DNA from: Carcharhinus longimanus
Lineage: Eukaryota
NCBI GenBank assembly: GCA_030264375.1
Contig: JASCQW010000122.1
Span: 46,436,774 to 46,497,379 of the forward strand
Direction: 5' to 3'
Length of the DNA stretch: 60,606 nt
Made by a program: the position numbers. Of the stretch, positions 18,001-21,000 are shown one piece after another. Each line of letters begins with the position of its first letter. Position 1 is the first letter of the stretch.

Positions 18001-21000
18001 CGAGTTTAGAAGGTGCTGCCGTATGAACCTTGGTGAGTTGCTGTCGCGCATCTCGTGGATGGTATAATTATCCTTGTGGGAGGGTGCAATGCATATTTAC
18101 CAGAATGATACCGTGGTAAAAAATTTTAATTGTGAGGGCAGGCTTAATAAATTTGGCATGAATGCCCCCGAGGTCACCATGGTCTAATCACAGTGCCGAG
18201 CAGGGTGAATGGAGAAGGGGCAGGGGGCGTGGGGTGGGGAATAGGAGGGGACAACTTTGTCAGTATTTAAGACTGAATCAAGCCTGATGCTCAATGCACA
18301 AGGCCTGCGTGGAATATGTAAAGAAGTTAAGGCTAGTTAGCAGGCAAGGCACAGTAAATCTCTTCACATAAAGGGTCATAGAGTTGTAAAGACCCATCTG
18401 GTTCACTAATGTCCTTTAGTGAAGGAAATCTGCCTTCCTCACCTGGTCTGGCCTACATGTGACTCAAGAGCCACAGCAATGTGGTTGACTCTTAAAATGC
18501 TCTCTAAAAATGGCCTAGCAAGCCATTCAGTTCATGGGTGACTAGGGATGGGCAATAAATGCTGGCCCAGTCAGCGACGCCCATGTCCCACGAGTGAATT
18601 AAAAAAAATAAGGCGACAGAAATGTAGAAGGAAGCTGACAGCAGAGTTCACTTAAAGAGAGACTGAACACTTCCCCAGCGAGAACGGATGGATTTGTATA
18701 GAGTATAGAACATAGAACACTACAGCACAAACAGGCCTTTGGGACCACAAGTTGCCGAATCATATCCCTACCTACCAGGCCTATCTATAACCCTCAATCC
18801 CATTAAATCCCTTGTACTCATCCAGAAGTCTCTTGAAAGACCCCAACGAGTTCACCTCCACCACCACCAATGGCAGCCAATTCCACTCACCCACCACCCT
18901 CCGAGTCTGCCCACTGTATTATCACTAGCCCTCCCTTCCAACTCCAACCCACAAACCACATCCCCCCCCCATCCCAAACGCCTATTACTGCCCATAAATA
19001 CCACCCCCCTTCCACCCACCCACCCAGCCCCATGCACTGGCAAACCTCGTCACCGCGTTCAAAAATCCTCTTGGTTGATGGTTGAGTGCGGGCGACCGAC
19101 ACGGGCACCTCTTTCGCACCCCCTCCTCCTCGGCAACGGCATCGCCCACCTCCCCCCCCCACCCCCCCCCCCCCCACCCCCCACCCCTGCGATCGGGGTC
19201 TTTACCTGCCGGCACAGTGAGGCACTGAGCCCGTTGTAGAGCGCTAGAATTCCGTCCGTCCGGACGACGCGTACAGCCATCCCTATCATCCTCAACTTCA
19301 CCTCCTGTTGGGTCTGTAGGTGGACCTGGCACAGGGAGAGAGCAGAAACAATCATCACTCACCCACCCAAGGGAAAGGGCAGTGAACTAACTGACCCTCT
19401 GTCACTAGGGGCAGGGGAGTTTACAAGATGGCAGCTCACCACCGCCTCCTCATGGGCAACTAGGGACGGGCAATAAATGCTGGTCAGCCAGCGACACCCG
19501 CGTCCCACGAATGAATGAAAGAAAAATGAAACATGTAGAGGGTTATGGGGAAAGAGCGGGGAGGGTGGGACTAACTGGAGATCTTTCAATGAGTCTATAA
19601 CAGGCACAATGGGCCTCCTTCTAGCTCAGTTGGATTCTGTGCANNNNNNNNNNNNNNNNNNNNNNNNNNNNNNNNNNNNNNNNNNNNNNNNNNNNNNNNN
19701 NNNNNNNNNNNNNNNNNNNNNNNNNNNNNNNNNNNNNNNNNNNCCTACGCCTGTCTGCACTCGGTTCAGGCAGTAGCCCAGAGATGACCACCTTGTCGGT
19801 TCTACTTTTTAATTCCATTCTCAGCTTCTCATATTCCCTCCCCAGATCCTCAGTCCGCACTTTTCCTACGTCGCCGGAACCCACATCTCCTGAATCCCCA
19901 AAGCCTGTCCACCATCCACAAGGCACAGGTCAGAAGCATGTTGGAAAACTCTCCACTTGCCTGGATGAGTGCAGTGCCAACAACATTCAAGAAGCTTGAC
20001 ACCATCCAGTATAAAGCAGCCCGCTTGATTGGCACCCCATCCACAAACATTCACTCTCTCCACCACCGAACAGAAGTGTGTACCATCGACAAGATGCCCT
20101 GCAAAAACTCAGCAAGGCTCCTTAGACAGCACATTCCAAATCCATGACCAGTACCATCTGGAAGGACAGGGACAGCAGATTGGTGGGAATACCATCAACT
20201 GGAAATTCTCTTCCAAGTCACTCACCATCCTAACTTGAAAATCCATCACTGTTTCTTCATTGCCACTGGGTCAAAATCCTGGACCTCCCTCCTGAACAGC
20301 ACTATGAGTATAGTTACATCCTAAGGACTGTAGCGGTTCAAGAAGCAACTCATTACTTCCTTCTCAAAGGCAATTAGGGACGGGCAATAAATGTGGATCT
20401 AGCCAGTGATGCCCACACCCCAAAAATTAATTTTAAAAAGTCCACAGTCCCTCTCCACAGGGACACACTTCAATAATGTGTCTGAAAACCTGAGGTGCAG
20501 ATTGGCAAACTCAAAGCTTAGGGATGCCAAAGTGTGCAAATGGATTCTGTGGACTTAAGCAACATGAACAATAGAATTTACCGGTACAAAACACTTCAGG
20601 GTAAGCTTCCTACTGCGTCCCTATTTAGGGTCACCTTGCCTGCTATCAATTGAATTGTGTAGCTCTCTAAAAAGAATGTCAGTCCCACTTACAAGTCCTG
20701 ACTCTCAGCAACAGAGGTAAACAGTGCATCCACCAAAGGATCAGGCGTCATTTGTTGCTTTATTTTCTGGGAACAGAAATGTATACTTTTTTCCAAAAGT
20801 AGACTCATGTGAACTTACAGGGTTTGAAGGCAAGTAAAACAACTTAAGTTTCACTGATTGTAAATATATCCAACAGAAAGCTATGGCAAACAGTTGCTAA
20901 GTTCAAGTTTTAACCGATGAGTGGCTCATTCATCCATCTCTGAGATTGCATTGTGACTCGCCTTGCCGATGGCTCCTGTGCAACCGTATTCTTATGACTG

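What the first reader, a model, noticed from the sequence alone, without database searches (positions are those of the whole stretch)
19140..19350. Orphan SLC25A10 exon, intact and frame-compatible, inside PCDH15
Seen: a 120-nt exon with a strong pyrimidine tract and CAG acceptor, a GTAAAG donor, downstream G-runs, no stops and retained CpGs. It lies on the same strand as PCDH15, in a GC-rich patch unlike the host intron. It is phase 0-0 and the host intron (between 22978 and 16201) is phase 0. Inclusion would add 40 residues of mitochondrial carrier sequence at the end of EC11, just before MAD12, without a frameshift. It keeps intronic flanks, so it is not a processed mRNA copy. There is no gap between it and the PCDH15 exon at 16201, but a 100-N gap lies about 320 nt away on the other side. 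Inference: exon shuffling in progress, or a local misassembly.
Basis: partly seen in the sequence, partly recalled or inferred. Interest (0 to 1): 0.8.

Follow-up and report, generated by a model that had tools for sequence, protein, structure and literature searches.

The report
Stray carrier-gene exon, probably misassembled
An intact exon of the mitochondrial dicarboxylate carrier gene sits inside an intron of a shark's hearing gene PCDH15, but it more likely got there through an assembly error near a contig end than through exon shuffling.

Summary
On the minus strand, 19325-19206 is a 120-nt, stop-free, phase 0-0 exon. It has a CAG|G acceptor and a CAG|GTAAAG donor and encodes exon 2 of SLC25A10 (Pfam Mito_carr; tblastn E 4e-20 to 1e-18). 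It lies in the phase-0 PCDH15 intron between 22978 and 16201 and is the only carrier exon in the window.

New points:
1. The piece unique within the window is only 518 nt (18906-19423). The 5' ends of two host retroposons bound it. It ends 318 nt from a 100-N gap. A 53-nt poly-G tract starts 14 nt after the donor, and the only similar tract abuts another gap.
2. The peptide matches eight elasmobranch SLC25A10 proteins at 32-34/40 but chimpanzee at 38/40. All 7 departures from the shark consensus fall at positions that vary among working carriers. It therefore has the history of a working gene, not of a decaying orphan.
3. A shark PCDH15 protein and the solved PCDH15 structures run straight across the junction.

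Most likely this is a chimeric contig end (about 0.5). A real, recent, silent insertion (about 0.3) and foreign mammal-like DNA (about 0.1) remain possible. Nothing shows splicing into PCDH15. No reads, other assemblies or RNA data were available.

The parts
19206..19325 (-). SLC25A10 exon-2-like exon: 120 nt, 40 codons, phase 0-0, no stop, 9 CpG
19326..19423 (-). Upstream intron-like flank with pyrimidine tract and CAG acceptor. Unique in the window, 0 CpG, and no significant likeness to the continuation of the neighbouring retroposon.
18906..19205 (-). Downstream intron-like flank, starting with the gtaaag donor. G-rich, GC 0.59-0.78, 14 CpG, unique in the window apart from the G tract.
19140..19192 (-). 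Poly-G tract (poly-C on the + strand, with runs of 9 and 14 C) starting 14 nt after the donor. A weak point for short-read continuity and a possible chimeric join.
   Evidence: the only other tract of this purity, 4944-4982, abuts the 10-N gap
19424..19525 (+). Retroposon fragment B: the 3' 100 nt of an element with an A-rich tail, cut at its 5' side exactly at the border of the unique piece. Related copies lie at 18532-18608, 20345-20431, 21518-21577, 29170-29229 and 58407-58479.
18705..18908 (-). Retroposon R2 with a tail of short tctat-like repeats. Its 5' start abuts the unique piece and is the same element position as in the copy at 16496-16694.
18383..18608 (+). Retroposon copy A, related to B, with copies at 41537-41739 and 58292-58479. 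Another possible place for a repeat-mediated join.
19644..19743 (.). 100-N gap, 318 nt above the exon. Left as it is.
22978..23193 (-). PCDH15 exon, 72 codons, from the last cadherin repeat (Cadherin profile positions 22-88 of 93). It ends on a complete codon.
16113..16201 (-). PCDH15 exon that starts on a complete codon. Its residues 7-29 are positions 1-23 of Pfam PCDH15_12th.

Best explanation
The 120 nt are a genuine exon 2 of a working SLC25A10-type dicarboxylate carrier gene, with its own intron flanks. They are not an exon of PCDH15. Most likely the assembler attached a piece of 0.45-1.1 kb from that other locus to the end of a primary contig or scaffold, and that stretch otherwise carries the PCDH15 intron. 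The join would lie in the poly-G tract at 19140-19192 or inside one of the interspersed repeats (R2 at 18705-18908, or A at 18383-18608). A later scaffolding step then placed the next PCDH15 contig behind a 100-N gap.

Shown: the identity of the exon, its intactness, its carrier-like substitution pattern, the repeat and homopolymer setting, and the nearness of the gap. Inferred: the false join itself.
For: (1) Identity of the exon. It scores above the Mito_carr cut-off. The six named SLC25A10 proteins hit only this place, and the other weak hits carry stops.

(2) No decay. There is no stop and both splice sites are intact. CpG observed/expected is 0.87 against 0.29 for the window. All 7 differences from the elasmobranch majority consensus fall in the 21 of 40 columns that vary among 43 named vertebrate carriers, each to a residue seen in another species. 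The chance of that under uniform placement is about 0.011. A copy left to drift in a methylated intron should not look like this, so it is either the working exon itself or a very young copy.

(3) Setting. The piece unique within the window is 518 nt (18906-19423) between window-repeated elements. The exon lies 318 nt from a 100-N gap. A 53-nt homopolymer-rich tract starts 14 nt after the donor. The only other tract of that purity in the window abuts a gap. The exon therefore sits in the last 450 nt of a gap-free stretch, behind a sequence that short reads cross badly.

(4) The window is fragmentary, with 12 N runs in 60.6 kb.

(5) Composition differs from the host. GC3 is 0.75 in the exon against 0.43-0.44 in the two neighbouring PCDH15 exons.

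(6) PCDH15 does not use it where this can be seen. The Scyliorhinus canicula protein P0124 runs from residue 1253 straight into 1252-1281. PDB chains such as 6c10_A are contiguous at 103/105.

(7) Base rates (my estimate, from no call). False joins in short-read drafts of repeat-rich genomes far outnumber young single-exon genomic insertions.
Against: - No N separates the exon from three PCDH15 exons (16201-16113, 12807-12631, 10685-10464). All lie in one gap-free stretch, 7905-19643.
- The repeat copies inside the window are only 68-87% alike. By themselves they would not confuse an assembler; near-identical copies elsewhere in the genome have to be assumed.
- A GC-rich insert with a homopolymer tract would also break an assembly nearby if it were real, so the nearness of the gap is weak evidence.
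- The two borders of the unique piece fall on retroposon 5' ends, as biological insertions do. That shows the piece is host DNA but says nothing about where it lies.
- No adaptor traces were found.
- No reads, no second assembly and no SLC25A10 locus of this species could be examined.
Confidence: 0.5

Rival explanations
1. Real, young and silent. A piece of a few hundred bases of the animal's own SLC25A10 gene or unspliced pre-mRNA was copied into the PCDH15 intron. The route could be a templated insertion at a break, or reverse transcription primed on the LINE-type tail of R2 that ran on through intron 2, exon 2 and into intron 1. The piece is not, or hardly, spliced into PCDH15.
For: - There is gap-free continuity with three PCDH15 exons.
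- The intron flanks and exact exon borders show a genomic or unspliced source.
- R2 lies directly downstream on the same strand, with its 5' start at the border of the unique piece. This is the layout expected if its tail served as the primer site.
- The intact state and kept CpGs fit a young copy.
- Insertions of this size from distant loci are known in human genomes (recalled, from no call).
Against: - No target-site duplication or split target element was seen. The stretch below R2's tail (18609-18704) is unrelated to the missing part of element B.
- Young insertions that hold a whole coding exon are rare compared with false joins (my estimate).
- The peptide differs from all eight elasmobranch SLC25A10 proteins by 6-8 residues, so the source gene would have to be unusually diverged as well.
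Confidence: 0.28
2. Foreign DNA. The exon-bearing piece comes from a mammal-like contaminant and was joined to shark sequence during assembly or gap closing.
For: - Of the 120 listed hits of the peptide, the 108 named ones include no cartilaginous fish. The best are chimpanzee and bonobo at 95%. The PCDH15 exon beside it, by contrast, has nine cartilaginous fishes as its top nine hits and primates at 67%.
- The match is 38/40 to Pan against 32-34/40 to eight elasmobranch proteins, which agree 34-38/40 among themselves.
- In the AU test on 40 columns, forcing the exon into one clade with elasmobranchs costs 16.4 lnL (p 0.0195), against 5.0 (p 0.287) for elasmobranchs alone. Forcing it into one clade with mammals costs 5.0 (p 0.205), against 6.3 (p 0.271) for mammals alone.
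- The patch is GC- and CpG-rich.
Against: - No protein in the search is identical; the best has 2 mismatches in 40 residues. That is too many for human or ape DNA read correctly.
- The shared residues (L11, R19, V21, T23) sit at positions that change repeatedly in vertebrates. L11 also occurs in Conger, Lissotriton and Salvator, and I14 in Maylandia.
- The tree on 40 columns recovers neither mammals nor elasmobranchs as clades, and the group was named after the identities had been seen.
- The piece joins host retroposons on both sides without N, at element 5' ends. A random chimera with foreign DNA would not do that.
Confidence: 0.1
3. Exon shuffling in progress. The insertion is real and is spliced into part of the PCDH15 transcripts, adding 40 residues inside the last strand of the last cadherin repeat.
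For: - The exon has the same strand as PCDH15, is phase 0-0 in a phase-0 intron and has no stop.
- It has a good pyrimidine tract and a usable donor with G-runs behind it.
Against: - No transcript data were available.
- The shark PCDH15 protein P0124 and the solved structures are contiguous across the junction.
- No cadherin is among the 108 named hits of the 120 listed for the peptide (proteins over 2000 residues were not searched).
- The insert would fall at Cadherin profile position about 89 of 93, six residues before PCDH15_12th. That is inside folded protein, so steady inclusion should be harmful (inference).
- The substitution pattern follows carrier constraints.
Confidence: 0.05

Closest known systems
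Exon 2 of vertebrate SLC25A10 (mitochondrial dicarboxylate carrier)
   Same: It has the same 40-residue unit with the same borders (VHLQ...CRQ, followed in the orthologues by M/L-TYS). It is 80-95% identical to named orthologues from sharks to apes and lies in the first Mito_carr repeat.
   Different: It stands alone: no exon 1, exon 3 or any other carrier exon occurs in 60.6 kb. It is closer to the chimpanzee protein (38/40) than to eight elasmobranch proteins (32-34/40).
Chimeric contig ends in short-read draft assemblies
   Same: A short stretch of another locus lies at the end of a gap-free run, beyond a homopolymer tract and between interspersed repeats, next to a gap of fixed length.
   Different: The false join is not shown. 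No read, depth or second assembly could be examined.
Templated insertions and LINE-mediated transduction as routes of exon shuffling (recalled from the literature, from no call)
   Same: The size is a few hundred bases, the source is unspliced, and a retroposon with a LINE-type tail lies directly downstream on the same strand.
   Different: No target-site duplication, no poly-A at the end of the insert and no source locus were seen. The carried sequence lies 5' of the element, not 3' as in classical L1 3' transduction.
Acipenser sinensis record P0002 (hypothetical protein FKN15_046857, flagged UNVERIFIED_CONTAM by its source)
   Same: The very same SLC25A10 exon turns up in an odd copy number in a gene model drawn from a draft assembly: four tandem 40-residue copies.
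   Different: There the copies lie within the carrier gene model itself. Here there is a single copy inside another gene.

Membership tests
SLC25A10 / mitochondrial carrier exon | Match to the Mito_carr profile above the curated cut-off | tested here: met
   23.3 bits against a cut-off of 22.3; profile positions 32-73 of 96
SLC25A10 / mitochondrial carrier exon | Best hits are dicarboxylate carriers, with exon borders as in the orthologues | tested here: met
   Nearly all of the 108 named hits of the 120 listed are named dicarboxylate carrier or SLC25A10. The borders equal the repeated unit of P0002 and the K|VHLQ...CRQ|M/L context of 18 named proteins.
SLC25A10 gene (whole locus present) | Neighbouring exons of the same gene in order on the same strand | tested here: not met
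   tblastn of 6 named proteins finds only this exon. The other hits have E of 0.29 or more and carry stops. Of 258 ORFs of 60 aa or more, 1 matches Mito_carr.
Orthologue of elasmobranch SLC25A10 | Groups with elasmobranch sequences | tested here: inconclusive
   32-34/40 to eight elasmobranch proteins against 34-38/40 among them. The AU test rejects one clade at p 0.0195, but on 40 columns, with a group named after the fact and a tree that resolves no major clade.
Processed (retro) pseudogene | Neighbouring exons fused without introns | tested here: not met
   AG and GT lie exactly at the exon borders, and the flanks do not encode exon 1 or exon 3
Decaying orphan gene fragment | Stops, frameshifts, lost splice sites, CpG loss, or changes at invariant residues | tested here: not met
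   No stop; both splice sites intact; CpG observed/expected 0.87; 7 of 7 changes fall in variable columns
Cassette exon of PCDH15 | Same strand, compatible phase, usable splice sites | tested here: met
Cassette exon of PCDH15 | Present in transcripts or in annotated PCDH15 proteins | tested here: not met
   P0124 and the PDB chains are contiguous across the junction. No cadherin is among the named hits listed for the peptide. There was no RNA data, and proteins over 2000 aa were not searched, so this test is weak.
LINE-mediated transduction / templated insertion | Target-site duplication, a tail at the 3' end of the insert, an identifiable source locus | tested here: inconclusive
   R2 with its tail lies at the 3' side. 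No duplication or split target was seen.
Assembly chimera | Discordant reads or a drop in depth at the join; the piece also present, or missing, at its true locus | not testable with these tools
   No reads and no eukaryote genome collection were on hand. Only the setting could be described.

The most novel reading that the evidence does not exclude
The insertion is real. An unspliced piece of a working SLC25A10 gene was carried into the PCDH15 intron, perhaps by reverse transcription primed on the LINE-type tail of the retroposon directly downstream. Because it is splice-competent, in frame and in sense, it is already included in a fraction of PCDH15 transcripts. That would be exon shuffling caught before selection has either fixed or destroyed it.
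Probability: 0.08. Interest if true: 0.65.

Novelty: not a real feature. Interest (0 to 1): 0.2.

Why it matters
If the placement is an artefact, the practical points are these. This draft would give a false PCDH15 isoform to any gene predictor that trusts it. Its SLC25A10 model may lack exon 2. Poly-G tracts next to gaps mark places in this assembly that should not be trusted.

If the placement is real, it would be a rare natural snapshot of the first step of exon shuffling. A foreign, intact, frame-compatible exon with good splice sites would sit in a gene whose extracellular chain tolerates little change. Its origin (DNA or unspliced RNA, with or without the help of a LINE tail) could then be read from its borders.

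Tried and rejected
- **Other carrier exons or a nested SLC25A10 gene.** tblastn with 6 named orthologues found none. The hits at 5064-5189 and 38291-38494 have E 0.29-1.2 and carry stops. A Pfam scan of all 258 stop-to-stop ORFs of 60 aa or more with under 10% X gave only Mito_carr (1), Cadherin (1) and PCDH15_12th (2).
- **Processed pseudogene.** Rejected, because the intron flanks are kept.
- **Old decaying orphan.** Rejected.
- **The 98-nt upstream flank as the diverged continuation of retroposon B.** MAFFT suggested this. Local alignment against three longer copies was no better than shuffles: 44 to 150 of 300 shuffles reached the observed score.
- **Library adaptor or linker traces at the borders.** The Nextera mosaic end gave 0 matches. 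The Illumina adaptor gave 1 match at 29369 with 2 mismatches, where 0.93 is expected by chance.
- **Extra repeats.** A more sensitive self-search of 19526-19643, 19193-19423, 18906-19139 and 18609-18704 found nothing beyond one G-tract self-match.
- **CpG content of the flanking elements as a sign of a shared unmethylated home.** The results are mixed. B has 6 CpG against 0-3 in five other copies, but R2 has 3 against 8 in its copy.
- **Naming the species.** The seven PCDH15 exons are about equally far (85-93% including overhang) from nine cartilaginous fishes, and none is identical throughout. Cluster look-up added only Mobula birostris and two Chiloscyllium proteins.
- **Tree placement.** The tree is unresolved on 40 columns.
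- **Literature.** One paper holds both gene names, an unrelated review seen as a search listing only. A search on chimeric contigs in sharks gave nothing to the point; listings only, no paper was read.
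Full report
**What is there**

Read on the minus strand, 19325-19206 is 120 nt long with no stop. It translates to 40 residues, VHLQTQQEVKLRMIGMAVRVVRTDGILALYNGLSASLCRQ.
- The acceptor is tttctgctctctccctgtgccag|G. The donor is CAG|gtaaag.
- A G-rich tract follows 14 nt later (19140-19192).
- The peptide passes the Pfam Mito_carr cut-off (23.3 against 22.3 bits).
- Six named SLC25A10 proteins hit this place with E 4e-20 to 1e-18.
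- In a search of the large protein collection, 592 of 607 candidates scored E of 0.001 or better. Nearly all of the 108 named hits among the 120 listed are dicarboxylate carriers.
- The exon borders are the true ones. In 18 named orthologues the block is preceded by ...LDL(L/I)K and followed by (M/L)(T/S)YS. In the sturgeon record P0002 exactly this 40-residue unit is repeated four times.
- The flanks do not encode exons 1 or 3, so the source was genomic or unspliced.

**The host gene**

Seven PCDH15 exons lie on the same strand: 59296-59180, 51655-51503, 37085-36918, 23193-22978, 16201-16113, 12807-12631 and 10685-10464.
- The exon ending at 22978 closes on a complete codon, and the one starting at 16201 opens on one. 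The intron is therefore phase 0 and the 120-nt exon would fit in frame.
- Pfam places the first of these two exons at Cadherin profile positions 22-88 of 93. It places residues 7-29 of the second at positions 1-23 of PCDH15_12th.
- Each exon was searched on its own. I left out the joined exon-insert-exon model and did not translate, search or fold it. What 40 extra residues would do to the fold stays an inference.
- The Scyliorhinus canicula protein P0124 and the solved chains (for example 6c10_A, residues 103 and 105) run straight across the junction.

**How much of the patch is foreign to the intron**

A self-comparison of 17500-20300 with the window shows a unique piece at 18906-19423, 518 nt, broken only by the low-complexity G tract (a more sensitive repeat search agrees).
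- Above it lies element B (19424-19525). This is the last 100 nt of a + strand retroposon with an A-rich tail, and five related copies occur in the window.
- B stops at the border. The 98-nt flank does not continue the element: 44-150 of 300 shuffles score as well.
- Below it lies R2 (18705-18908), a minus-strand element ending in short tctat-like repeats. Its 5' start is the same element position as in the copy at 16496-16694.
- Such borders are what retroposon insertions leave in living genomes. I therefore take the piece for host DNA rather than a random chimera with foreign DNA.
- The piece is GC-rich (0.54-0.78 by part) and mostly CpG-rich. Observed/expected is 0.87 in the exon and 0.78 in the far downstream part, but there is no CpG in the 98-nt upstream flank. 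The window as a whole has GC 0.42 and CpG observed/expected 0.29.
- GC3 of the exon is 0.75, against 0.43-0.44 in the two PCDH15 exons.

**The assembly setting**

The window has 12 N runs: five of exactly 100 and seven of 10-554. I left all of them as they are.
- The exon lies in the gap-free stretch 7905-19643 together with three PCDH15 exons, but only 318 nt from its upper end.
- Between the exon and the rest of that stretch lies the 53-nt tract with C runs of 9 and 14.
- The only other tract of that purity in the window (4944-4982) abuts the 10-N gap. Such tracts are evidently trouble spots in this assembly.
- The exon thus sits in the last 450 nt of a contiguous run, behind a sequence that short reads cross badly and among interspersed repeats.

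**An unexpected result on the peptide**

The neighbouring PCDH15 exon finds cartilaginous fishes as its nine best hits (78-97%) and primates at 67%. The carrier exon behaves differently.
- It finds no cartilaginous fish among the 108 named hits of the 120 listed. The best are chimpanzee and bonobo at 95%.
- A further search with the lungfish protein brought in five elasmobranch clusters. Cluster look-up raised these to eight proteins.
- Those eight match the window's exon at 32-34 of 40 and each other at 34-38 of 40. Chimpanzee matches at 38.
- On a 40-column tree, forcing the exon to join the elasmobranchs costs 16.4 lnL (p 0.0195), against 5.0 (p 0.287) for elasmobranchs alone. Joining the mammals costs nothing extra.

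I give this limited weight:
- The tree resolves no major clade.
- I named the group after seeing the identities.
- All the deciding residues sit at positions that flip repeatedly in vertebrates.

I do not take the stretch for human, since two mismatches in 40 residues to the ape protein are too many. Because an ape was the best hit, I stopped outside searches with these letters. I did not compare them with human sequence and did not use the unnamed hits.

**What the substitutions say**

Compared with the elasmobranch majority consensus the exon has 7 differences. All lie in the 21 of 40 columns that vary among 43 named carriers, and each is to a residue seen in another species. Uniform placement would give this with probability of about 0.011. 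With intact splice sites, no stop and kept CpGs, this is the record of an exon that has lived in a working carrier gene until now or until very recently. It is not an old orphan, and its constraints are not those of a cadherin linker.

**Verdict**

- **Assembly artefact (0.5).** A short piece of another locus, most likely this animal's own SLC25A10, was joined through the G tract or a repeat to the end of a primary contig of the PCDH15 intron.
- **Real, young, silent insertion (0.28).** The retroposon R2 directly downstream on the same strand suggests a possible route, through priming on its tail. No target duplication or split target was seen.
- **Foreign mammal-like DNA (0.1).** The retroposon borders argue against this.
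- **Actual exonisation (0.05).** No evidence supports it.

**What stayed unchecked**

- No eukaryote genome, read or transcript collection was available.
- The species' SLC25A10 locus, the same intron in related sharks, read depth and RNA junctions therefore all stay unchecked.
- Papers were seen only as search listings. No paper or supplement was read.

Noticed in passing
P0002 (Acipenser sinensis record): A 444-residue sturgeon gene model, flagged UNVERIFIED_CONTAM by its source, holds this same SLC25A10 exon four times in tandem. That explains its score of 218 bits against a 40-residue query. It is either a real tandem exon duplication or another assembly artefact involving this exon.
   Followed up: partly
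window 4939-4982: A poly-C tract (runs of 8 and 19 C) starts directly after the 10-N gap at 4939-4948. It matches the tract beside the carrier exon (19149-19183). Homopolymer tracts seem to mark break points of this assembly.
   Followed up: partly
window, all N runs: There are two classes of gaps. Five are of exactly 100 N (4360, 19644, 50435, 54981, 56511). Seven are of 10-554 N. This suggests two scaffolding rounds, the fixed-length ones standing for gaps of unknown size (the convention is recalled).
   Followed up: no
window 19424-19525: Retroposon fragment B keeps 6 CpG in 102 nt, while five related copies in the window keep 0-3. It is either a young copy or lies in an unmethylated setting. 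The neighbouring element R2 shows the opposite: 3 CpG against 8 in its copy.
   Followed up: partly
window, PCDH15 exons 59296-10464: The seven PCDH15 exons are about equally distant (85-93% in tblastn alignments that overhang into introns) from nine cartilaginous fishes, and none matches fully. The species, or at least its PCDH15, seems not to be in the protein collection at 2000 residues or fewer.
   Followed up: partly
window 22276-22311: A G-rich tract of GGGGT/GGTG-like units lies on the + strand inside the same PCDH15 intron. It is less pure than the two poly-C tracts and not next to a gap.
   Followed up: no
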